A program made the position numbers and the translations under genes. The notes under the pieces are model-generated. The model had not been told where the DNA came from, did no database searches, and worked only from the letters and a program-made list of their open reading frames with translations. Shown one piece after another: positions 23,734 through 46,304 of a stretch of 49,197 nucleotides of DNA (positions within the stretch are counted from its first letter, which is position 1; every line of letters starts with the position of its first letter). Location of the stretch: the sequence record OM475427. One strand, 5' to 3'. Source of the DNA: Escherichia phage D2.

Positions 23734-24027
23734 ATGGATATAAGCCCCTTACTTCATGCACTTTGTGCTGTGGCTGCGCAGATACTGGTTGGTCTTTTTA
23801 CCGGAAACTGGGCTTACGGAGCGATAGCCGGTTGTACGTTCTTCATTGCGCGTGAACATACCCAGGCAGAATATCGCTGGATTGAAATGTTCGGGCATGG
23901 CAAGCGAATGAATATGCCGTGGTGGGGCGGTTTTGATCCGCGAGCTTGGGATGTGGCAAGCCTGATGGATTTTGCTGTGCCGGTGGTGGCGTGTCTGCTG
24001 GTCTGGCTGTTGGTTAATCGTGGGTGA
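23734..24027 (+). CDS. Hypothetical membrane protein (97 aa)
   Basis: ORF with hydrophobic segments; preceded by GGAGG-like RBS (aaaggaggaaataATG); no family recognised. Confidence 0.3.
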   Translation: MDISPLLHALCAVAAQILVGLFTGNWAYGAIAGCTFFIAREHTQAEYRWIEMFGHGKRMNMPWWGGFDPRAWDVASLMDFAVPVVACLLVWLLVNRG

Positions 24028-24119
24028 AAAAAGGTGANCTGNANATNGCAACGGAGGAAGAAACCNCGTTGCTGGAAGCCNGGAANAAGTATCGGGTGTT
24101 GCTGNNCTCGGATGTTGTG

Positions 24120-24977
24120 CTAATTGGGTGATAACAGATCCTGTGTATGGGAGTTTCCCTTTTTGCGTGCGTTGATGCTGGTAACGGCAAACGTCATGAT
24201 GAACAAAACCGCGAATAAGACGACAATCGTCGGAGCTGGTGCGCTGTCGATAAAAAAGGACAACCAGACACCAGTCATTGACACTATTACCGATATGCCA
24301 GTCGCCAGTAGGAGCGCAATATGAAAGCGTTGTGTCAGGAGTACCGCAATGGCGCCAGGCGCAATGAGCAGAGAAATGGAGAGAATGATACCTACCGCTT
24401 TCAGCGTCGCCACAATGGTCAGAGAGACCATGCACAGCAGCCCATAATGCAGCCATCTCGTATGCAAACCGCTTACCTGCGCCTGTTGATAATCAAAGCT
24501 GAACAGCAAAAAATCCCGCCATTTTACGCTAATAACAAGTGTAACCAGCCCGGCAATAANCATCGTCTGGATTATATCGCCGATGGTTATCCCGAGCATG
24601 TCGCCGAANAGAATATGGTCAAGATGTNCGTCTGGTTTGACTGCAATATACAAGATCAGANCTGCGGCAAACATGCCAGANAANACNATCCCCATCACTG
24701 TATCTTGCTTGATTCGGCTGTTGTCTTTCAGGTATCCCGTCGCCACCGCGCAGAATACTCCGGCGACGAATGCCCCTGTAGCCAAAGGTAACCCCAGAAT
24801 CCAGGCAAGCACGATGCCAGGAAAAACCGCATGACTCATCGCGTCACCCATCAGTGCCCAACCTTTCAGGACCAGAAAGACCGACAGCAGCGCACAGGGT
24901 ATGGAAACTACCAGTGAAATCAGCAGTGCGTGACTCATAAAGGTGAACTGCAGTGGCTCCAGTAATAATGCCATCAT
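24120..24977 (-). CDS. sitD: Mn/Fe ABC transporter permease SitD (contains ambiguous bases)
   Basis: 285-aa polytopic membrane protein, paralogous to the upstream permease; several n/X positions. Confidence 0.85.
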   Translation of the reverse strand: MMALLLEPLQFTFMSHALLISLVVSIPCALLSVFLVLKGWALMGDAMSHAVFPGIVLAWILGLPLATGAFVAGVFCAVATGYLKDNSRIKQDTVMGXXXSGMFAAXLILYIAVKPDXHLDHIXFGDMLGITIGDIIQTMXIAGLVTLVISVKWRDFLLFSFDYQQAQVSGLHTRWLHYGLLCMVSLTIVATLKAVGIILSISLLIAPGAIAVLLTQRFHIALLLATGISVIVSMTGVWLSFFIDSAPAPTIVVLFAVLFIMTFAVTSINARKKGNSHTQDLLSPN

Positions 24978-25831
24978 GAGCGATCCTCCAGCGCCTTATG
25001 CGCACGCCGACGATTTGCCAAAAGCCCATGGGTGGGCGCAAAGACAAATGCTAAAAGAAACAGCAGTGTCTGCGCCACCACGATGATTCCACCTGTCGCG
25101 CCGTCCAGAAAGTAACTGACCCACGCGCCGAGGAAACTGGTTACACTGCCAATAGTTACAGCAATCATGAGCAGGCGGGGAAAACGATCGGTTAACAACC
25201 ATGCTGTTGCACCGGGAGTCACCACCAGACAGATCACCAGAAAGGCACCAACCGTTTGCAGCGCCGCAACGGTCGAAACCGACAGCAGGGTGAAGAAGAG
25301 GAGTTTTAATCTGCCCGGATGCAATCCAATAGCACGGGCGTGATTCTCGTCGAAAAAGGTCACCATAAGATCTTTCCATTTGAAAAAAAGCACGATGATC
25401 GAGAGAATGCCAATGATAGTGAGTTGCAGGATATCCGCCGGATCGATTGCCAGAATATTGCCCAGGACGATGGTCTGAATGTTCACAGATGTCGGGTTCA
25501 ATGACACCATAAACAGCCCCAGGCCAAAAAAGGACGAGAAGATCAGACCGATGATGGCATCTTCTTTTAAGCGGGTGCGTTGGTTAAGAAACAGCATGCT
25601 GCCCGCAGCCAGTCCGCCGGAAAAGAAGGCTCCCAGAGAAAACGGAAGCCCCAGCATATATGCCCCCGCAACACCCGGGACAATAGAGTGCGACAACGCA
25701 TCGCCAATCAGCGACCAGCCTTTTAGCATCAGATAGCATGACAGGAAAGCGCAGAGACCGCCGACCATCGCCGAGACCCACATCGCATTGAGCATATATT
25801 CATAGCTGAAGGGTTCCAGTAGCACGTTCAT
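24974..25831 (-). CDS. sitC: Mn/Fe ABC transporter permease SitC
   Basis: 285 aa, ABC-3 family permease; 4-nt overlaps with sitB and sitD. Confidence 0.9.
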
Positions 25832-26655
25832 CTTTCTTCCCTCTGCACCGCTGACGGTCGATGAGCCACAAAAGGGCGTTCATCGTCAGTAATAATGCTT
25901 TCTTCCGAGCCGTTAAGTGTGACATGGCGCAGTACGCCGCTAAAAGCCAGCTCTAGGTTCTCGGCTGTAAAAGTGGTGTCTGTCGGCCCGCTTGCCAGGA
26001 CGGTGCCTTTGACCATGACCGTATAATCGCAAAATGTCGTGACGGATCCGAGATTGTGTGTTGAGACAAGCATCGTTTTGCCTTCCGCGCGTAACTCCCT
26101 CAACAGGCTGATGATTTTGGCTTCGGTTTTCACATCAACGCCAGTAAAAGGTTCATCCAGCAGGATCACATCACCCTGCTGTGCAATCGCTCTCGCCAGA
26201 AAGACGCGTTTCTTTTGTCCACCGGAAAGCTCGCCGATTTGTCGATGGCGAAAATTCACCATATCGACACGTTCCAGCGCATCGGTGACAATTTGACGAT
26301 CCCTCTTTTTGGCGATACGCAACATACCCATATGCCCATAGCGGCCCATCATCACCACATCTTCCACCAGTACAGGAAATGACCAGTCAACCTCTTCTGA
26401 CTGAGGGACGTAGGCAACCAGGTTTTTCTGTAACGCCTGTCGCGTGGGAATACCCAGAACAGATATCTTTCCGCTGGTCAGACGCACAAATCCCATAATC
26501 GCTTTAAACAACGTCGATTTTCCGGAACCGTTTACCCCAACCAGAGCGGCAATAGATCCACTTGGTACTGTGAAGGATGCATCGCGCAGTGCTGTGTGCC
26601 CGTTATGCCAGGTGACAGCAACATCATTAACGACAATGCCTGCAGATTGCATCAT
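25828..26655 (-). CDS. sitB: Mn/Fe ABC transporter ATP-binding protein SitB
   Basis: Walker [13 protein letters not shown] signature LSGGQKKR, Walker B ILLDEP. Confidence 0.9.
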
Positions 26656-27569
26656 TATTTCTCCCTTTTCCCGGCTTTAATTCCCTGTACCAGCGTACTG
26701 GTAGTAACCTTAAGAAGGTCGATATACGTCGGTACCGGGCCGTTTTCTGTGCTCAGGGAATCGACATAGAGCACACCGCCGTAGTGTGCGCCGGTTTCAC
26801 GCGCAACCTGACGCGCTGGTTTATCGGAAATCGTACTCTCGCTAAAGACTGCCGGGATATGATTTTTCTTAACTATATCAACAACCTTACGTACCTGCTG
26901 CGGTGTTCCTTGTTGATCGGCATTAATCGGCCACAGATAAAGCTCTTTTAGCCCCAAATCGCGTGCGAGATAAGAAAAAGCCCCTTCACTGGTGACCATC
27001 CATCGCTGATTCTCAGGGAGTTCCGTAATCTGCTTACGCAGGGGGGCAAGGGTTTGGGTAATCTTGGCTTTATAAGTATCGGCATTGCGTTGGTAGGTTT
27101 GTGCATTTGCCGGATCGTATTTTATCAACGCATCACGAATATTATCGACGTAAATCAGAGCATTATCTGGCGACATCCATGCATGGGGGTTAGGTTTGCC
27201 CTCATAGGGTCCTTCGGTGATCCCTACAGGCGTCACACCCGAAGAGACAATTACTTCTGGAACCCCATTGAGATGCTGGTAAAAGCGTTGGAACCACAAT
27301 TCCAGATTCATACCATTGGCGAGAATCAGTTGTGCCCCCTGCGCACGTTTAATATCGCCAGGGGTAGGCTGATACTCATGAATTTCTGCACCAGGCTTGG
27401 TTATGGATGAGACTTCTGCAGCATCTCCCGCCACGTTTTTGGCCATATCCGCGATGATGGTAAATGTTGTAATGACCTTAAATTTTTCAGTTGCACTTGC
27501 CTGAAATGCGATCGAGCAGGTGAGTGCGAGGCCCCCCAAGAGCATGGTTACTTTTTTTATTGAGCGCAT
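26655..27569 (-). CDS. sitA: Periplasmic Mn/Fe-binding protein SitA
   Basis: 304 aa with signal peptide; cluster-9 metal-binding protein, first gene of a sitABCD-type operon. Confidence 0.9.
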
Positions 27570-39180: not shown

Positions 39181-39198
39181 TTGGGGGAGAGGGAAGTC

Positions 39199-39537
39199 AT
39201 GAAAAAACTAACCTTTGAAATTCGATCTCCAGCACATCAGCAAAACGCTATTCACGCAGTACAGCAAATCCTTCCAGACCCAACCAAACCATTATGGCCA
39301 TCTGTTGGTACAATTATTTGTTATTGTGCATCATTCTGGTTATTAGCTCAGACGCTGGCTTATATACCTACAGGGATTGCTTATGCTATCTGGTCAGGAG
39401 TCGGTATTGTCCTGATTAGCTTACTATCATGGGGATTTTTCGGCCAACGGTTGGACCTGCCAGCCATTATAGGCATGATGTTGATTTGTGCCGGTGTGTT
39501 GGTTATTAATTTATTGTCACGAAGCACACCACATTAA
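39199..39537 (+). pseudogene. In-frame fusion of ninB 5' end (32 codons) to emrE 3' end (about 80 codons)
   Basis: MKKLTFEIRSPAHQQNAIHAVQQILPDPTKP (lambda NinB N-terminus) joined to WPSVGTIICYCASFWLLAQTLAYIPTGIAYAIWSGVGIVLISLLSWGFFGQRLDLPAIIGMMLICAGVLVINLLSRSTPH (EmrE from about residue 31); lacks EmrE TM1. Confidence 0.7.
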
Positions 39538-39792
39538 AAATAATTTATTTTTAAACGACTAAAATATGGAGGTTCGTATATTTGTATGGGCCTCGTTTTA
39601 TGCTTTTTGTTAATGTCTTTAGTTTTTATTCATTCTTTTGATCTTTCAAGACCATGGTGTAAGAAAATTGCAATACGATTATTGTTGTATATTCAAGATA
39701 ATGTGACCTTAATTGTCTTTTTAAATAAAAATTAAACAAAAATCATATCTCACCACTAAGGTTTATAAAAGCATACTTTAGCAGGTGTCACC

Positions 39793-41319
39793 ATGAAAAA
39801 AGCCATAGCATATATGCGATTTTCATCACCAGGTCAGATGTCTGGTGATTCATTAAACCGCCAGAGAAGGCTTATTACTGAATGGCTAAAGGTAAATAGT
39901 GATTATTACCTTGATACCGTAACGTATGAAGATTTGGGGTTAAGCGCATTCAATGGAAAGCATGCACAATCAGGAGCTTTTTCGGAATTTTTAGATGCTA
40001 TAGAACATGGTTACATATTGCCAGGGACTACATTGTTAGTTGAAAGTCTGGACAGACTTTCAAGAGAAAAAGTCGGTGAAGCGATTGAGCGTCTGAAATT
40101 GATTTTGAATCACGGTATTGATGTTATAACTCTTTGCGATAATACAGTCTATAATATAGACTCATTGAATGAGCCATATTCATTAATAAAAGCCATACTT
40201 ATAGCACAAAGGGCAAATGAAGAAAGCGAGATAAAGTCAAGTCGGGTTAAATTATCATGGAAGAAAAAACGGCAGGATGCACTGGAATCAGGCACGATTA
40301 TGACGGCGTCTTGTCCGAGATGGCTCTCATTGGATGACAAAAGAACAGCTTTTATTCCAGACCCCGACAGGGTGAAAACGATTGAGCTAATTTTTAAACT
40401 CAGGATGGAAAGGCGATCATTGAATGCAATAGCTAAGTATTTAAATGATCATGCTGTAAAAAATTTTTCAGGAAAAGAAAGTGCATGGGGGCCTTCTGTA
40501 ATTGAAAAATTATTAGCGAATAAAGCTCTGATAGGTATATGCGTACCTTCATATCGTGCAAGAGGGAAAGGGATAAGTGAAATCGCTGGCTATTATCCCA
40601 GAGTCATATCAGATGATTTGTTTTACGCTGTACAGGAAATTCGGTTGGCACCTTTTGGTATTAGCAATAGTAGCAAGAATCCTATGCTAATAAATCTACT
40701 TCGAACAGTTATGAAGTGTGAGGCTTGTGGTAATACCATGATTGTTCATGCGGTATCTGGACGTTTGCATGGCTATTATGTTTGTCCGATGAGAAGATTA
40801 CATCGATGTGACAGGCCATCAATAAAAAGAGATTTGGTTGATTATAATATCATTAATGAATTGCTTTTTAATTGTAGCAAAATTCAACCAGTTGAAAACA
40901 AGAAAGATGCTAATGAAACTTTAGAGTTAAAAATTATTGAGCTTCAGATGAAAATTAATAATTTAATCGTTGCATTGTCTGTCGCGCCTGAAGTTACCGC
41001 TATAGCAGAGAAAATAAGACTATTAGATAAGGAATTACGAAGGGCTTCGGTATCATTAAAAACTTTGAAGAGTAAAGGGGTGAGTTCACTTGGTGATTTT
41101 CATGCTATTGATTTAACCAGTAAAAATGGGCGAGAGCTATGTCGTACACTTGCCTATAAAATATTCGAAAAAATTATAATTAATACAGATAATAAAACCT
41201 GTGATATCTATTTTATGAATGGCATTGTTTTTAAACACTATCCTTTAATGAAAGTAATATCCGCCCAGCAGGCGATAAGTACTCTTAAATATATGGTTGA
41301 TGGTGAGGTTTATTTTTGA
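39793..41319 (+). CDS. ybcK: Large serine recombinase (DLP12 YbcK-like)
   Basis: 508 aa; N-terminal resolvase/invertase catalytic domain (AYMRFSSPGQ..SLNRQ) and large C-terminal recombinase/zinc-ribbon domain; AT-rich. Confidence 0.85.
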   Translation: MKKAIAYMRFSSPGQMSGDSLNRQRRLITEWLKVNSDYYLDTVTYEDLGLSAFNGKHAQSGAFSEFLDAIEHGYILPGTTLLVESLDRLSREKVGEAIERLKLILNHGIDVITLCDNTVYNIDSLNEPYSLIKAILIAQRANEESEIKSSRVKLSWKKKRQDALESGTIMTASCPRWLSLDDKRTAFIPDPDRVKTIELIFKLRMERRSLNAIAKYLNDHAVKNFSGKESAWGPSVIEKLLANKALIGICVPSYRARGKGISEIAGYYPRVISDDLFYAVQEIRLAPFGISNSSKNPMLINLLRTVMKCEACGNTMIVHAVSGRLHGYYVCPMRRLHRCDRPSIKRDLVDYNIINELLFNCSKIQPVENKKDANETLELKIIELQMKINNLIVALSVAPEVTAIAEKIRLLDKELRRASVSLKTLKSKGVSSLGDFHAIDLTSKNGRELCRTLAYKIFEKIIINTDNKTCDIYFMNGIVFKHYPLMKVISAQQAISTLKYMVDGEVYF

Positions 41320-41643
41320 GTAATAATCACTTTTTCAACCGTGCTATGGTATGAAAGTAAAGTAACTAATATGATATTAACTATCTTGAACGAAGCGCCC
41401 TGAGCTATAGTTTTACTATAGGCACTGTCACTGGATGTTGGCATTCTTGCTCTAGTAGCTCAACAATACCCAATCACAAAACAATTCACTGATAACAAAC
41501 TTTGTGCACGTGCTTGGTTATGGCGAACAGGTGATGTTAACCTCTTGCCAGAATGCCACTCCACTTCATTAAGTATCTGAGCACCGAGAGGCTGGTCACG
41601 CCCCCATTAAAAATAATTTCTTTTGAATCGAGTGAAATAGGTT

Positions 41644-41670
41644 AGCCCGCATAAGTGCGGGCTGCTTTTT
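41644..41670 (+). terminator. Rho-independent terminator between convergent ybcK and esterase genes
   Basis: Hairpin AGCCCGC-ATAAGT-GCGGGCT followed by GCTTTTT. Confidence 0.45.
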
Positions 41671-42712
41671 ACAGGTCAGCGTTTGTTTTTTGTTGTTGGG
41701 TAGCGGTTTTTATGGGGGTTCCCAGGTTTTTAGTAAACCACTCAACAACTCTGTTTATAATAATTGGCTGATACCATGTATTATCGCCATGCTCGGCCCC
41801 TTCTACCAGCACGTACTCAGCGTTATCACCGTTCTTCTTCAACATCCTGAATAGTTTGGCGCTTTGCTCAGGTGAAACCAGAGTGTCTTTGCTACCATGC
41901 ATAATAAGAAATGGGGGTTTTACTCCTTTCATATGTCCGATTGGACTGGCGTTTAGCGCTTTTTCTTTTGACGCTGTGATGGGGGCTCCCGCAAAATTTC
42001 TGAATGCAGGGCCATTGATCATTAAGGCTTCGGTTACGGCAGGAGAGCGATGAACCTCCTGCACTGATTCAGGGAACCCCTCGCCAATATTCAACAAGTC
42101 AGAAATCCCATAAAGTGTGGCAACTGCCTGAACATCTGAGGATTGCTGAAGAAAGTCACCTTTATCAAAGGTTTTGTCACCATTTGTAGTTCCCATCATC
42201 TGGGCAAGCCATCCACCGGCAGAGTCACCCAGAACTCCGATTCTTTGAGGATCAATCCCATAATTGCTGGCATGCTCTCTCAGGTAACGTATTGCAGCTT
42301 TTCCATCCTCAACTGGTGCTGGAAATGTATCAGGAATTGTTCTGTATTCTACAGCGGCCACAACAAAACCAGCTTCTGCCAGAGCCATTCTCATTTCAAT
42401 AAATTTGTCATGTTCAGAAGACATGAATCCGCCGCCGGGATAATAAATAATGGCTGGTTTTAAATCATTTGTTCGCGGGACAAGAACTGACATGTGAAGC
42501 TGTCTGACAGAACGAGTTCCTTTTATCTGGGAATAAACAACATCACCAATGAGATCGACCTGGTTTCTGGTCGGTGAAACACTAATGATATCTGCACCCG
42601 GGGTGTAACCAGGAAGATTAGTCTGGACAGGTGTTGCACAACTCCCGACCGACATGGCCATTGACATACCATACAATAGTGTTGCAGATGATAATATCTT
42701 GTTAATTTTCAT
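41669..42712 (-). CDS. Secreted alpha/beta-hydrolase (esterase/lipase-like), probable lipoprotein
   Basis: Signal peptide with lipobox-like SVGSC; HGG-type oxyanion motif (YYPGGGF); nucleophile elbow GDSAGG; C-terminal HG (GAEHGD). Confidence 0.7.
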   Translation of the reverse strand: MKINKILSSATLLYGMSMAMSVGSCATPVQTNLPGYTPGADIISVSPTRNQVDLIGDVVYSQIKGTRSVRQLHMSVLVPRTNDLKPAIIYYPGGGFMSSEHDKFIEMRMALAEAGFVVAAVEYRTIPDTFPAPVEDGKAAIRYLREHASNYGIDPQRIGVLGDSAGGWLAQMMGTTNGDKTFDKGDFLQQSSDVQAVATLYGISDLLNIGEGFPESVQEVHRSPAVTEALMINGPAFRNFAGAPITASKEKALNASPIGHMKGVKPPFLIMHGSKDTLVSPEQSAKLFRMLKKNGDNAEYVLVEGAEHGDNTWYQPIIINRVVEWFTKNLGTPIKTATQQQKTNADL

Positions 42713-43159
42713 GTTTTACATGCCTTGACTTATCGGATGAAATTCTCTTACTGAATTTAACGGCAGTTTAATAGCCGTACAACTCGTGGTAGCCAGGGAA
42801 ATATCCCAGTCGTGGTTAAGGTTGTACTTGACGGCTATTATTTCAACAATGCTTAAAGTGAGAGCTTAAGGTTATGCGTATGTTTTACAGTCCGAGTAGA
42901 TTCTGACCAATAGCTTCTTTGTATAATTCTGTCAGAAATAAATCTTGGCTTGCATGAAGTTTGAGACCTTATCTTGTTTGATTATGAATAATCAATTCGC
43001 CATAATTGTATCACCGGAGCCTGAACAACTCCGGTGACTTCTGCGCTAAACGGGGACGTTTATGCGCACACACAATCCAAACTCTCTTCTCCCTTCACAG
43101 ATGCAGAAATGCACCTGCGTTTTTTTGCATCCAGCGTCTGACCTCTGTGGAGGTGAAGC

Positions 43160-43615
43160 GTGAACCTACCACAAGATGGCATCAAACTGCATCGCGGTAA
43201 CTTCATCGCTATCGGCCAGCAGATCCAGCCTTATCTGGAGGACGGAAAATGCTTTCGCATGGTGCTTAAACCGTGGCGTGAGAAACGCAGTCTTTCCCAG
43301 AATGCACTCAGCCATATGTGGTACAGCGAAATCAGTGAATACCTCATCAGCAGGGGGAAATCGTTCGCTACCGCAGCATGGGTAAAAGATGCTCTCAAAC
43401 ACACATACCTCGGTTATGAAACCAAGGACCTGGTTGATGTCGTAACCGGCGAAATCACTACTATCCAGTCGTTACGCCATACCTCCGATCTTGATACCGG
43501 AGAGATGTATGTCTTCCTGTGTAAGGTTGAAGCCTGGGCGATGAATATTGGCTGCCACCTGACTATTCCGCAGAGCTGCGAGTTCCAGCTGCTGCGCGAC
43601 AAGCAGGAGGCGTAA
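43160..43615 (+). CDS. ybcN: YbcN / NinB-family protein
   Basis: 151 aa, GTG start with GGAGGTG RBS; DLP12 ybcN-like; shares the S-L-S-Q-N motif seen in NinB/Orf-family proteins. Confidence 0.7.
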
Positions 43616-45221: not shown

Positions 45222-46304
45222 TTAGAACTGATAAACCAGACCTACAGCGACGATGTCGTCGGTATCAATACCAGCTGTTTTGGTAAACTTACTATCGTCA
45301 ATTAAGTTGATTTTGTAATCAACAAAAGTGGACATGTTTTTATTAAAGTAGTAAGTAGCACCGACATCGACATACTTGACTAAGTCTCGGTCACCATGAA
45401 CACCAAGGTCTTTACCTTTTGACTGAAGGTAAGCAACAGATGGTCGCAGACCGAAGTCAAACTGATATTGTGCTACTGCTTCAAAGTTTTGTGCTTTGTT
45501 TGCAATATGGTTATTACCAAAAACGGTCATATTCTGAGTTTCAGAATATGTGGTAGCCAGATAGATATTGTTCGCATCATATTTCAGGCCTGCAGCCCAT
45601 ACTTCCGCATTTTTGCCGGAGGCATTGAATTTGCTCTTACCATAGGCGACCTGACCGTCAGTGCGATCTGATTTAGCATAGGTTGCACCCACGCCGAATC
45701 CTTCATACTCATAAGTAGTGGAGAAACCGAAACCATCACCATTGACTTCAGTTACGTCAGTGCGGTCATTTTTACCCTGATACTGAGCAGCAAAGTTCAG
45801 GCCATCGACCAGACCAAAGAAGTCGTTGTTACGATAAGTTGCAACACCAGTAGTGCGACCAGTCATGAACACATCTGTTTGGGTCCAGGTATCACCACCG
45901 AATTCTGGCAGGACGTCAGTCCACGCACCGATGTCGTATGCTACACCGTAGTTACGGCCGTAATCGATTGAGCCGTAATCACCAAATTTCAGGCCTGCAA
46001 ATGCAAGACGGGTTTTGTCTTTGGAAGAACCTTGAGATTCAGCACGGTTGCCTTTGAATTCATATTCCCACTGACCGAAACCAGTCAGTTGATCGTTGAT
46101 TTGGGTTTCACCTTTGAAGCCAAGACGGGCATAAGTAGTATCACCATCATCTGCATCATTAGAGGAGAAGTAGTGCTTGGCATTAACTTTCCCGTATAGA
46201 TCCAGCTTGTTACTGTCTTTATTATAAATTTCAGCTGCCTGAGCAGACATCGCCATCAGTACTGATGCAGCTACAGCAGAAATTGCCACTGTTAATTTTT
46301 TCAT
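45222..46304 (-). CDS. nmpC: Outer membrane general porin (NmpC/OmpD/OmpC family), apparently intact
   Basis: 360 aa; signal peptide ending AQA; mature N-terminus AEIYNKD..KLDLYGK; C-terminal VGLVYQF with terminal Phe. Confidence 0.85.

What the first reader, a model, noticed from the sequence alone, without database searches (positions are those of the whole stretch)
41669..42712. Secreted alpha/beta-hydrolase lipoprotein as a moron in the nin region
A convergently oriented gene with its own terminator encodes an esterase/lipase-fold enzyme (HGG oxyanion motif, GDSAGG nucleophile elbow) with a lipoprotein-type signal peptide, inserted between ybcK and ybcN where DLP12 carries other cargo. 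A secreted hydrolase expressed from a prophage could act on host envelope or exogenous esters (lysogenic conversion).
Basis: partly seen in the sequence, partly recalled or inferred. Interest (0 to 1): 0.4.

Follow-up and report, generated by a model that had tools for sequence, protein, structure and literature searches.

The report
Phage-borne exported feruloyl-type esterase moron
A temperate E. coli phage carries, in place of the ybcL-ybcM genes of the DLP12 prophage, an intact and transcribed gene for an exported serine esterase whose nearest relatives are plant-cell-wall feruloyl/acetyl esterases; it is an already annotated, common accessory gene, not a new kind of system.

Summary
Window 41669-42712 (-) is an intact 347-aa ORF for an alpha/beta-hydrolase with a Ser164/Asp276/His308 triad, a GDSAGG elbow and an N-terminal export signal. 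It lies convergent to ybcK, in a 1.6-kb cassette (41359-42976) that replaces ybcL-ybcM of K-12 DLP12.

Two details need correcting. There is no HGG motif; the oxyanion loop is P-G-G-G. The hairpin after the gene has its T-run on the + strand.

The lipobox (V-G-S-C25) passes the relaxed PROSITE rule but not the strict consensus. Cys25 is present in 677 of 682 E. coli records and in 3 of the 4 closest relatives, but is absent from more distant family members.

The protein belongs to Pfam BD-FAE (5.5e-45). It is 66% identical to one of two Dickeya aquatica proteins annotated 'ferulate esterase'. Its closest relatives (74-80% identity) sit directly downstream of a phenolic acid decarboxylase gene. 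This points to a hydroxycinnamoyl/acetyl ester hydrolase acting on exogenous plant esters rather than on the cell envelope.

The same DNA occurs in about 12% of complete E. coli genomes and in isolated Bievrevirus phages, annotated 'esterase' or 'alpha/beta hydrolase' (PHROG 3341). Published LF82 RNA-seq shows it transcribed from the prophage. Verdict: a new member of a known kind, of modest interest.

The parts
41669..42712 (-). Esterase gene, 347 aa (ATG 42712-42710, TAA 41671-41669). Alpha/beta-hydrolase of the Pfam BD-FAE / Abhydrolase_3 type.
   Evidence: ORF list. Pfam BD-FAE 5.5e-45, 153.9 bits against a cut-off of 26.8. PHROG 3341 'esterase' 1.3e-129. PDB 6nkf 1e-37, 6mly, 6xyc. AF2 model has mean pLDDT 77, with TM 0.80 to 6nkf and 0.79 to 6xyc.
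42638..42712 (-). Signal peptide (residues 1-24, MKINKILSSATLLYGMSMAMSVGS) and Cys25 (codon TGT, 42640-42638). The lipobox-like V-G-S-C overlaps a possible SPase I site, S-C-A|T.
   Evidence: Sequence and PROSITE PS00013-type pattern match. The exact 61-mer containing the Cys codon is in 677 of 682 E. coli records. Relatives carry SAGC or STGC, or have no Cys.
42425..42439 (-). Oxyanion-loop motif P92-G-G-G-F96, in place of the HGGG of hormone-sensitive-lipase-type esterases.
   Evidence: G93, G94, G95 and F96 are invariant in 28 homologues.
42221..42223 (-). Codon of the nucleophile Ser164 (TCT) within G162-D-S-A-G-G167.
   Evidence: Aligns with the GFSSGG serine of BD-FAE (6xyc/6tkx; Ser128 in PMC8165983). 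Invariant.
41885..41887 (-). Codon of the catalytic Asp276 (GAC) in H-G-S-K-D.
   Evidence: Aligns with Asp237 of BD-FAE. Invariant.
41789..41791 (-). Codon of the catalytic His308 (CAT) in A-E-H-G-D.
   Evidence: Aligns with His269 of BD-FAE. Invariant.
41643..41664 (.). GC-rich hairpin 4 nt after the stop codon. It is terminator-like on the + strand (T-run 41666-41670) and has a weaker U-tract on the - strand.
   Evidence: Terminator scan. Folds at -16.9 kcal/mol on the - strand (z -3.2) and -20.3 kcal/mol on the + strand (z -2.8).
41359..42976 (.). 1618-bp cassette that replaces ybcL-ybcM (1813 bp) of K-12 DLP12. Homology to DLP12 ends at 41358 and resumes at 42977. Its left 180 bp (41359 to about 41540) resembles the 3' end of a Rha/P22AR-type gene of other lambdoid prophages.
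   Evidence: blastn against NC_000913.3. Junction alignments. Annotation of K-12. Partial hits in phages and genomes.
42837..42864 (-). Candidate promoter only: -35 CTCTCA, 16-nt spacer, extended -10 TGnAATAAT, about 124 nt upstream of the ATG.
   Evidence: Own consensus scan. The tool's stricter scan found no minus-strand promoter here. Transcription itself is shown by LF82 RNA-seq.

Best explanation
The gene encodes an exported serine carboxylesterase of the BD-FAE / CE10-like branch of the alpha/beta-hydrolases. It is carried as a self-transcribed accessory gene (moron) in the nin region of a Bievrevirus-type lambdoid temperate phage.

Shown:
- The ORF is intact and the Ser164-Asp276-His308 triad and GGG oxyanion loop are complete.
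- There is an N-terminal signal peptide.
- The cassette replaces ybcL-ybcM.
- The gene is present, nearly invariant, in about 12% of complete E. coli genomes and in isolated phages.
- It is transcribed in an LF82 (Perceval) lysogen while its phage neighbours are silent.

Inferred:
1. After Sec export the protein is probably lipidated at Cys25. With Ala at +2 it would then be sorted to the outer membrane. Alternatively it is cut by signal peptidase I and released into the periplasm.
2. Its substrates are probably hydroxycinnamoyl (feruloyl, p-coumaroyl, caffeoyl) and/or acetyl esters of plant origin, such as feruloylated or acetylated oligosaccharides or chlorogenic-acid-type esters met in the gut. 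It would release the free phenolic acid or acetate. In the closest relatives a cytoplasmic phenolic acid decarboxylase encoded just upstream then acts on that product. The phage copy has lost this partner.
3. The benefit to the lysogen would therefore be metabolic or detoxifying, not envelope modification.
For: Enzyme:
- Pfam BD-FAE 5.5e-45 over model positions 7-214 of 215.
- The triad aligns with Ser128/Asp237/His269 of the crystallised, biochemically characterised feruloyl/acetyl-xylan esterase BD-FAE and is invariant in 28 homologues.
- The AF2 model's best PDB matches are 6nkf, 6xyc/6tkx (BD-FAE) and 6mly.

Substrate:
- The protein is 66% identical to D. aquatica SLM61953.1 and 47% to SLM61950.1. 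Both are annotated 'Ferulate esterase', and these are the two ferulate esterases (FaeD/FaeT) that genome is reported to have.
- FaeD is a T2SS-secreted feruloyl esterase (PMC9007343).
- A phenolic acid decarboxylase gene (PF05870) lies 12-33 nt upstream of the esterase in relatives of 80%, 75%, 74% and 76% identity. One of these is an E. coli IncF plasmid where RefSeq annotates 'phenolic acid decarboxylase' next to 'alpha/beta hydrolase'.
- The same linkage appears as an adjacent pseudogene in Erwinia tracheiphila and next to a 44%-identical homologue in a Selenomonas MAG.

Export:
- K2 and K5, a hydrophobic core, and Cys25 matching the PROSITE PS00013-type pattern.
- Cys25 is present in 677 of 682 E. 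coli records.
- Three of the four closest relatives have xxGC at the same place.

Moron status:
- The cassette swap against K-12 is defined.
- The DNA is identical in phages 4A7, Lambda_4C10, 1W, 3W and PhiR47_2, and 99.9% identical in Perceval.
- LF82_159 raw counts were 1650/1665 (B1), 266/258 (B6), 27/15 (LB), 203/364 (macrophage 1 h) and 145/191 (macrophage 6 h), against 0-44 for the adjacent ninB.
- Macrophage 6 h versus LB gave log2FC 2.26, q 2.7e-13.
- There is no PADLOC defence match.
Against: - No enzymatic data exist for this protein. Substrate range in this family is broad: the best PDB match is labelled a lipase, and NCBIfam sub-threshold hits include acetyl esterase, pectin acetylesterase PaeX and LipQ.
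- The phage copy lacks the decarboxylase and LysR partners, and no remnant of them is present. The pathway logic is therefore borrowed from relatives.
- I could not establish which of the two D. aquatica proteins is FaeD. The original FaeD/FaeT paper is not held.
- The lipobox has Gly at -2, outside the strict [LVI][ASTVI][GAS]C consensus.
- Cys is replaced by Tyr in a rare E. coli allele and in relative P0004, and is absent in all relatives of 73% identity or less.
- No SignalP or LipoP run was possible.
- In LB the gene is only about 3.8-fold over the local prophage background. That is below the 5-fold cut-off of the LF82 study, which did not list it as a moron.
- No convincing sigma-70 promoter match was found.
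Confidence: 0.55

Rival explanations
1. It is a general short-chain acyl or acetyl esterase, or a lipase, whose physiological substrate is not a hydroxycinnamate ester. Candidates include acetylated host or dietary glycans, pectin or xylan acetyl groups, xenobiotic esters or lipids.
For: - BD-FAE itself is bifunctional, with feruloyl and acetyl-xylan esterase activity.
- The best PDB hit, 6nkf, is named a lipase.
- Sub-threshold NCBIfam hits go to acetyl esterase, PaeX, acetylxylan esterase AxeA1 and chloramphenicol hydrolase.
- Many homologues (Klebsiella, D. dianthicola, Pantoea) have no decarboxylase neighbour.
Against: The closest relatives, and one distant relative, are specifically linked to a phenolic acid decarboxylase. 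The Dickeya homologues are annotated ferulate esterases. All NCBIfam hits lie far below their curated cut-offs.
Confidence: 0.3
2. The protein is a soluble periplasmic (or further secreted) enzyme cleaved by signal peptidase I after S-C-A26, not a lipoprotein. On this view Cys25 is incidental.
For: - Most family members have ordinary SPase I signals without Cys (AIA|S, ALA|A, VNA|G).
- S24-x-A26|T27 satisfies the -3/-1 rule.
- Tyr replaces Cys in P0001 and P0004 without other change.
- Gly at -2 is atypical for a lipobox.
- Dickeya FaeD is a soluble T2SS substrate.
Against: Cys25 is present in 677 of 682 E. coli records. A Cys preceded by small residues is shared by three of the four closest relatives despite 20-26% divergence. 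The relaxed PROSITE lipoprotein pattern and its position and charge rules are all met. After Cys25 comes a Pro/Thr-rich, low-confidence stretch (the model has pLDDT below 50 for residues 1-28) that looks like a tether.
Confidence: 0.33
3. Lysogenic conversion of the cell envelope: the esterase removes acetyl or acyl groups from O-antigen, LPS, peptidoglycan or lipoproteins, altering phage receptors or immune recognition.
For: The location is right (periplasm or outer membrane), and prophages often encode envelope-modifying enzymes. Transcription rises in macrophages.
Against: Known O-antigen and peptidoglycan O-acetyl esterases are SGNH/GDSL enzymes, not this fold (established knowledge, not tested here). 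No glycosyl- or acetyl-transferase partner lies nearby. Homologues sit in plant-associated bacteria next to aromatic-acid genes. There is no defence-system match.
Confidence: 0.05
4. It is a functionless passenger: a hitch-hiking remnant of a broken decarboxylase-esterase operon that persists only because the phage is successful.
For: The operon partners (PAD, LysR) are missing. The cassette flanks are a patchwork of remnants.
Against: The ORF is intact in about 680 genomes at 99% identity or more, with all catalytic residues kept. It is transcribed in a condition-dependent way. A 96%-identical copy in another Escherichia lineage is also intact.
Confidence: 0.05

Closest known systems
BD-FAE (PDB 6TKX/6XYC), founding member of Pfam PF20434: bifunctional feruloyl and acetyl-xylan esterase from a Bacteroidetes xylan PUL (PMC8165983)
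   Same: Same Pfam family (5.5e-45). Same Ser-Asp-His triad positions, same fold (TM 0.79), and an exported enzyme.
   Different: Only about 25% identity. BD-FAE has Y-G-S-A-W where this protein has Y-P-G-G-G. BD-FAE is encoded in a polysaccharide utilisation locus, not a phage, and has no lipobox-like Cys.
Dickeya feruloyl esterases FaeD/FaeT (Hassan & Hugouvieux-Cotte-Pattat 2011, J Bacteriol 193:963; CAZy CE10 assignment and activity details recalled from memory)
   Same: 66% identity to one D. aquatica 'ferulate esterase' (SLM61953.1) and 47% to the other. Same length and domain layout, N-terminal signal peptide, and the same conserved C-terminal tail.
   Different: The Dickeya genes are chromosomal, lie beside LysR/MFS genes and belong to the plant-cell-wall degradome. 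FaeD is secreted by the Out T2SS. The Dickeya signal peptides have no Cys. Which of the two is the true orthologue is unresolved.
LysR - phenolic acid decarboxylase - esterase operons of Enterobacterales (e.g. E. coli plasmid pSCU-105-1, NZ_CP051739.1)
   Same: 74-80% identical esterase with the same lipobox-like xxGC signal. These are the nearest relatives of the phage gene.
   Different: The phage cassette carries the esterase alone. DNA similarity stops at the CDS ends (41706-42722), so the promoter and flanks are different.
ybcL-ybcM cargo of DLP12 and other nin-region morons; prophage-encoded NanS-p sialate O-acetylesterases of Stx phages (the latter from memory)
   Same: Same concept: a lambdoid prophage carrying an exported host-benefit gene at a mosaic junction. 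NanS-p is a precedent for phage-borne esterases that unlock gut substrates.
   Different: YbcL is a PEBP-family periplasmic protein and YbcM an AraC-type regulator. NanS-p enzymes are SGNH-fold and lie in the late region. Neither is homologous to this protein.

Membership tests
Alpha/beta-hydrolase, Pfam BD-FAE (PF20434) | Profile match above the curated gathering score over most of the model | tested here: met
   153.9 bits against 26.8; residues 80-290 match model positions 7-214 of 215.
Alpha/beta-hydrolase, Pfam BD-FAE (PF20434) | Ser-Asp-His triad at the positions of BD-FAE Ser128/Asp237/His269, with G-x-S-x-G | tested here: met
   Ser164, Asp276 and His308 align in the phmmer alignment to 6xyc, with triad numbering from PMC8165983. 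They are invariant in 28 homologues.
Alpha/beta-hydrolase, Pfam BD-FAE (PF20434) | Alpha/beta/alpha sandwich fold | tested here: met
   AF2 model has mean pLDDT 77 and pTM 0.77. Foldseek gives 6nkf TMt 0.80 and 6xyc/6tkx 0.78-0.79.
Alpha/beta-hydrolase, Pfam BD-FAE (PF20434) | Feruloyl and/or acetyl esterase activity | not testable with these tools
   Needs an enzyme assay.
Hormone-sensitive-lipase family (Abhydrolase_3, bacterial family IV esterases) | H-G-G-G oxyanion motif upstream of GxSxG | tested here: not met
   The motif reads P92-G-G-G. There is no HGG anywhere in the protein. Pro or Thr occupies this position across the aligned homologues. Abhydrolase_3 still matches at 1.1e-22.
Dickeya FaeD/FaeT feruloyl esterases | Close sequence relationship to the characterised enzymes | tested here: inconclusive
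   66% and 47% identity to the two D. aquatica proteins annotated 'Ferulate esterase'. The D. dadantii 3937 sequences and the original paper were not available.
Dickeya FaeD/FaeT feruloyl esterases | Adjacent regulator (faeR) and ferulate induction; Out T2SS secretion | tested here: not met
   No regulator gene lies in the cassette; the neighbours are ybcK and ylcH/ybcN. Induction and secretion are not testable here.
Bacterial lipoprotein (Lgt/LspA substrate) | Lys/Arg in the first 7 residues, hydrophobic core, Cys at position 15-35 | tested here: met
   K2, K5, hydrophobic residues 6-21, Cys25.
Bacterial lipoprotein (Lgt/LspA substrate) | Lipobox [LVI][ASTVI][GAS]C (strict), or the PROSITE PS00013 pattern (relaxed) | tested here: inconclusive
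   V-G-S-C fails the strict pattern at -2 (Gly) and passes the relaxed pattern. An SPase I site S-C-A|T overlaps it.
Bacterial lipoprotein (Lgt/LspA substrate) | Conservation of the lipidated Cys among orthologues | tested here: inconclusive
   677 of 682 E. coli records keep it. It is present in P0002, P0003 and P0005. It is Tyr in P0001 and P0004, and absent in all relatives of 73% identity or less.
Bacterial lipoprotein (Lgt/LspA substrate) | Acylation and globomycin-sensitive processing | not testable with these tools
   Needs an experiment. No SignalP or LipoP was available.
Phage moron | Dispensable insert between conserved phage genes, absent from or replaced in related phages | tested here: met
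   The cassette 41359-42976 replaces ybcL-ybcM of DLP12, with flanks 95% identical. Other lambdoid phages share only the first roughly 140 bp of the 41400-43000 query, i.e. window 41400 to about 41540.
Phage moron | Autonomous transcription in the lysogen | tested here: met
   Published LF82 RNA-seq gives LF82_159 counts of 145-1665 in DMEM and macrophage conditions, against 0-44 for the adjacent ninB. In LB it is 3.8-fold over the prophage median, below the authors' 5-fold cut-off.
Phage moron | Own promoter and terminator recognisable in the sequence | tested here: inconclusive
   A hairpin is present, but its T-run is on the opposite strand. Only a weak extended -10 promoter candidate was found.
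Anti-phage defence system component | Match to a known defence protein family | tested here: not met
   No PADLOC hit at E <= 0.01 for the esterase or for YbcK.

The most novel reading that the evidence does not exclude
The phage-borne esterase is a transmissible determinant of hydroxycinnamate-ester hydrolysis (chlorogenic acid, feruloylated fibre) in gut E. coli. Carriers seen here include ST131 strains, SE15 and AIEC LF82/NRG857c.

On this reading it would explain why only some human colonic E. coli isolates show cinnamoyl-esterase activity (Couteau et al. 2001; that E. coli was among the isolates is from memory). It would spread by lysogeny as a lipoprotein-anchored derivative of a plant-pathogen cell-wall enzyme. 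Its induction in DMEM and inside macrophages might also indicate a second, host-directed ester substrate.
Probability: 0.2. Interest if true: 0.5.

Novelty: new member of a known kind. Interest (0 to 1): 0.3.

Why it matters
If the substrate inference is right, a widespread temperate phage moves a dietary-polyphenol or fibre-ester hydrolase between E. coli strains. Carriers include the pandemic ST131 lineage and AIEC LF82. That would add a metabolic trait to a prophage already known for the sitABCD metal transporter, and give a simple genetic handle on strain-to-strain differences in chlorogenate and ferulate release in the gut.

It also shows how a nin-region slot exchanges cargo (ybcL-ybcM versus the esterase), and how an SPase I-type secreted enzyme family may have acquired a lipoprotein anchor in one clade.

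Otherwise it is an ordinary, already annotated accessory esterase.

Tried and rejected
- Looked for a remnant of the phenolic acid decarboxylase, or any DNA similarity beyond the CDS, between the phage cassette and its PAD-linked relatives. None was found; tblastn gave only chance hits, and blastn similarity is confined to 41706-42722.
- Tested whether the 38-nt repeat downstream of the esterase marks an emrE-like pseudogene. No protein or DNA similarity extends beyond the 38 nt.
- Tried to read the original FaeD/FaeT paper by DOI and by PMC id. It is not held, so the FaeD versus FaeT assignment stays open.
- A literature search for the protein's identifiers (WP_000700204, LF82_159, A0A0H3EIG2, PERCE_52) returned nothing.
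- Two reviews were checked to confirm that E. coli was among the Couteau 2001 isolates. Neither says so, so that point rests on memory.
- The genome-contig scan with the single protein gave only 7 loci and no Dickeya. Dickeya contexts were obtained through the look-up of encoding contigs instead.
- The left-junction count is not clean, because 41359 to about 41540 is shared with other prophage cargo.
- The cluster representative P0001 (Tyr25) suggested that the Cys was a rare allele. The 61-mer count rejected this.
- A defence-system role was rejected (no PADLOC hit).
Full report
**1. What is in the sequence**

The ORF list shows one long ORF at exactly the stated coordinates: 41669..42712 on the minus strand, 347 aa, ATG start. 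It is convergent with the large serine recombinase gene ybcK (39793-41319, +). It is divergent from the small ylcH-like ORF and ybcN (43160-43615, +).

The protein contains the following features:
- G162-D-S-A-G-G167, the nucleophile elbow.
- H272-G-S-K-D276.
- A-E-H308-G-D.
- Y-P92-G-G-G-F96.

There is no 'HGG'. The loop that corresponds to the HGGG oxyanion motif of hormone-sensitive-lipase-type esterases reads PGGG. G93-G95 are invariant in 28 aligned homologues.

The N-terminus, MKINKILSSATLLYGMSMAMSVGSC25ATPVQ, has two lysines, a moderately hydrophobic core and a single Cys at position 25.

**2. The terminator**

A GC-rich hairpin (41643-41664) starts 4 nt after the stop codon. The scan reports it as a + strand terminator, with the T-run CTTTTT overlapping the esterase stop codon. 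On the gene's own strand the stem is followed by AACCUAUUUCAC.

The hairpin folds well on both strands: -16.9 kcal/mol on the - strand (z -3.2) and -20.3 kcal/mol on the + strand (z -2.8). 'Its own terminator' is therefore only partly right. The element is at least as well suited to stopping rightward transcription out of ybcK, and it may act in both directions.

**3. Enzyme family and catalytic residues**

- Pfam gives BD-FAE (PF20434) at 5.5e-45 over almost the whole model, then Abhydrolase_3 and the C-terminal half of Peptidase_S9. This is the same split pattern described for BD-FAE itself (PMC8165983).
- All NCBIfam hits are far below their curated cut-offs.
- The best solved relatives are Lip_vut4 from a goat-rumen metagenome (6nkf, 1e-37), the GH43-CE protein of Bacteroides eggerthii (6mly), and BD-FAE (6xyc/6tkx).
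- In the phmmer alignment to 6xyc, Ser164, Asp276 and His308 fall on the residues that the BD-FAE paper identifies as the triad (Ser128, Asp237, His269).
- All three are invariant across 28 homologues of 42-79% identity.
- An AlphaFold2 model built on that alignment has mean pLDDT 77 and pTM 0.77. Residues 1-28 are below pLDDT 50. It matches 6nkf (TM 0.80 on the target) and 6xyc/6tkx (0.78-0.79) best.

The enzyme looks catalytically competent.

**4. Where the window comes from, and the cassette**

The 1.6-kb stretch is 100% identical in E. coli SE15 and many other genomes. There it lies in a lambdoid prophage and is annotated 'alpha/beta hydrolase' (WP_000700204.1). In total 668-681 of 5426 complete E. 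coli genomes carry it.

It is also identical in the isolated or induced phages 4A7 (NC_049946, genus Bievrevirus, annotated 'esterase'), Lambda_4C10, 1W, 3W and PhiR47_2. It is 99.9% identical in Perceval, a prophage of AIEC LF82.

The window has the gene order of a packaged lambdoid genome: terminase to tail, then sitABCD, int, the early genes, nin, Q, and lysis.

Against K-12 DLP12, homology (about 95%) runs to window 41358 and resumes at 42977. A 1618-bp cassette therefore replaces the 1813 bp that hold ybcL and ybcM. The right junction is the same in all 681 carriers.

The left part of the cassette is a patchwork:
- 41359 to about 41540 resembles the 3' end of a Rha/P22AR-type gene of other prophages.
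- 41602-41639 repeats the 38 nt that follow emrE, at 84% identity.

G+C of the gene is about 44-47%. ybcK is 31-40% and the nin genes about 50%.

PHROGs already holds the family (phrog_3341 'esterase', 1.3e-129). PADLOC has no match.

**5. Expression**

The LF82 study (PMC9928086) provides RNA-seq per gene. [quoted passage not shown]
- 1650/1665 in B1.
- 266/258 in B6.
- 27/15 in LB stationary phase.
- 203/364 in macrophages at 1 h.
- 145/191 in macrophages at 6 h.

The adjacent ninB has 0-44 counts and ybcK 6-241. Macrophage 6 h versus LB gives log2FC 2.26, q = 2.7e-13. B1 and B6 appear to be the DMEM cultures.

In LB the gene is about 3.8-fold above the prophage median. That is under the authors' 5-fold cut-off, so they did not list it among Perceval's morons.

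The gene is thus transcribed on its own in the lysogen and responds to conditions. Sequence scans give no convincing promoter. The only candidate is an extended -10 (TGnAATAAT) about 124 nt upstream.

**6. Export signal: lipoprotein or not**

V-G-S-C25 satisfies the relaxed PROSITE-type lipoprotein pattern, including its position and charge rules. It has Gly at -2, outside the strict [LVI][ASTVI][GAS]C lipobox. S24-C-A26|T27 is also a plausible signal peptidase I site.

The 90%-cluster representative (P0001) has Tyr in place of Cys. That variant is rare: the exact 61-mer containing the TGT codon is found in 677 of 682 E. coli records.

The four closest non-phage relatives (74-80% identity) read SAGC, STGC, STGC and STGY. 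Every relative of 73% identity or less (Dickeya, Pectobacterium, Pantoea, Klebsiella, Kluyvera, Rhizobium, Variovorax) has an ordinary signal peptide without Cys.

A lipobox-like Cys is therefore a feature of one young clade. I rate lipidation, followed by outer-membrane sorting because residue +2 is Ala, at about 0.6. A soluble periplasmic form is the rival. Export itself is well supported. No signal-peptide predictor was available.

**7. Likely substrate**

Two independent lines point to hydroxycinnamoyl and/or acetyl esters of plant origin.

*First line: homology to Dickeya ferulate esterases.* Homologues of 62-73% identity are concentrated in plant-associated Enterobacterales and rhizobia. 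In D. aquatica one locus holds two family members. SLM61953.1 is 66% identical to the phage protein and SLM61950.1 is 47% identical. They are separated by MFS and LysR genes, and both are annotated 'Ferulate esterase'. That genome is reported to encode the two ferulate esterases FaeD and FaeT. FaeD is a type II-secreted feruloyl esterase. I could not determine which is which, because the primary paper is not held.

*Second line: gene neighbourhood.* A phenolic acid decarboxylase gene (PF05870) lies immediately upstream of the esterase, often with a divergent LysR regulator, in these relatives:
- the 80%-identical relative (L004);
- the 75%-identical relative (L025);
- the 74%-identical relative (L005-L008);
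- the 76%-identical copy on E. coli IncF plasmid pSCU-105-1, where RefSeq names both genes.

A decarboxylase pseudogene adjoins the Erwinia tracheiphila homologue. An intact decarboxylase precedes a 44%-identical homologue in a Selenomonas MAG.

An exported esterase that frees ferulate or p-coumarate, paired with a cytoplasmic decarboxylase that removes it, is a coherent two-step module. The phage cassette carries only the first step. No decarboxylase remnant is present, and DNA similarity stops at the CDS ends.

BD-FAE, the founding member of the Pfam family, has both feruloyl and acetyl-xylan esterase activity. Acetyl esters therefore remain a realistic substrate.

Nothing in the family or its contexts suggests O-antigen, LPS or peptidoglycan as targets.

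**8. Comparison with what is known, and novelty**

The gene is annotated in RefSeq and in phage records, belongs to a PHROG, and sits in a prophage (Perceval) whose transcriptome has been published. No paper was found that names or studies it.

It works like a BD-FAE / FaeD-type carbohydrate esterase and passes the sequence and fold tests for that family. It fails the HGGG test of classical family IV esterases, and it lacks the regulatory context of Dickeya faeD.

As a biological idea, a phage-borne exported esterase that serves as a metabolic moron has precedent (NanS-p of Stx phages, from memory).

I therefore file it as a new member of a known kind. The points of modest interest are:
- the clean cargo swap with ybcL-ybcM;
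- the clade-specific gain of a lipobox;
- the inferred link to dietary hydroxycinnamate esters;
- its spread in ST131 and AIEC-type strains.

**9. Confidence**

| Claim | Confidence |
|---|---|
| Serine esterase | about 0.95 |
| Exported | about 0.9 |
| Autonomous prophage expression | about 0.85 (published data for a 99.9%-identical copy) |
| Lipoprotein | about 0.6 |
| Hydroxycinnamoyl-ester preference | about 0.5-0.6 |
| Composite best explanation | about 0.55 |

Noticed in passing
window 1-49197: The window has the gene order of a complete packaged lambdoid phage genome (terminase first, lysis last). The cassette stretch 41400-43000 is identical or nearly so in Bievrevirus phages 4A7, Lambda_4C10, 1W and 3W, and in LF82 prophage Perceval.
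   Followed up: partly
window 23749-27569 (-): The sitABCD iron/manganese ABC transporter operon lies between the tail genes and int, in the 'b region'. In some host genomes an IS66-like ISEc23 lies beside it.
   Followed up: partly
window 39181-39537 (+) and 45222-46304 (-): Two further cargo genes lie in the same early-right and late region: emrE (an SMR efflux pump) and an intact OmpC/NmpC-type porin gene. The porin gene is interrupted by IS5 in K-12 DLP12.
   Followed up: no
window 39529-39566 and 41602-41639: A 38-nt direct repeat (84% identical) brackets the ylcJ-ybcK module. In Escherichia sp. MOD1-EC7003 (L009) the esterase cassette is joined to emrE exactly at this repeat and ybcK is absent. 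This looks like a deletion or insertion through the repeat. Whether the serine recombinase YbcK uses these sites is unknown.
   Followed up: partly
window 41359 to about 41540: The left end of the cassette is 85-90% identical to the 3' end of a 'P22AR C-terminal domain'/Rha-type gene found next to ybcK in other lambdoid prophages and phages (Turner, PhiR26_1). It appears to be a remnant of earlier cargo.
   Followed up: partly
protein residues 343-347 (window 41672-41686): The family has a conserved extreme C-terminus, [DN]-A-[NSD]-L (NADL here), in 24 of 28 aligned members, after a variable low-confidence tail. Its function is unknown.
   Followed up: no
window 42639; P0001, P0004: The lipobox Cys is replaced by Tyr (TGT to TAT, a single base) in a rare E. 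coli allele. That allele happens to be the 90%-cluster representative. The same replacement occurs independently in a 75%-identical PAD-linked relative.
   Followed up: yes
L023/L024 (metagenome contigs with the 80%-identical homologue P0003): This homologue lies next to a SPATE-type serine protease autotransporter (Peptidase_S6) and a PerC-family regulator. That is a virulence-island or plasmid-like context rather than a decarboxylase operon.
   Followed up: no
L016/L017 (Dickeya aquatica and Dickeya sp. DW 0440): Both 'ferulate esterase' paralogues in the D. aquatica locus have N-terminal signal peptides. FaeT is recalled (from memory) as being reported cytoplasmic.
   Followed up: no
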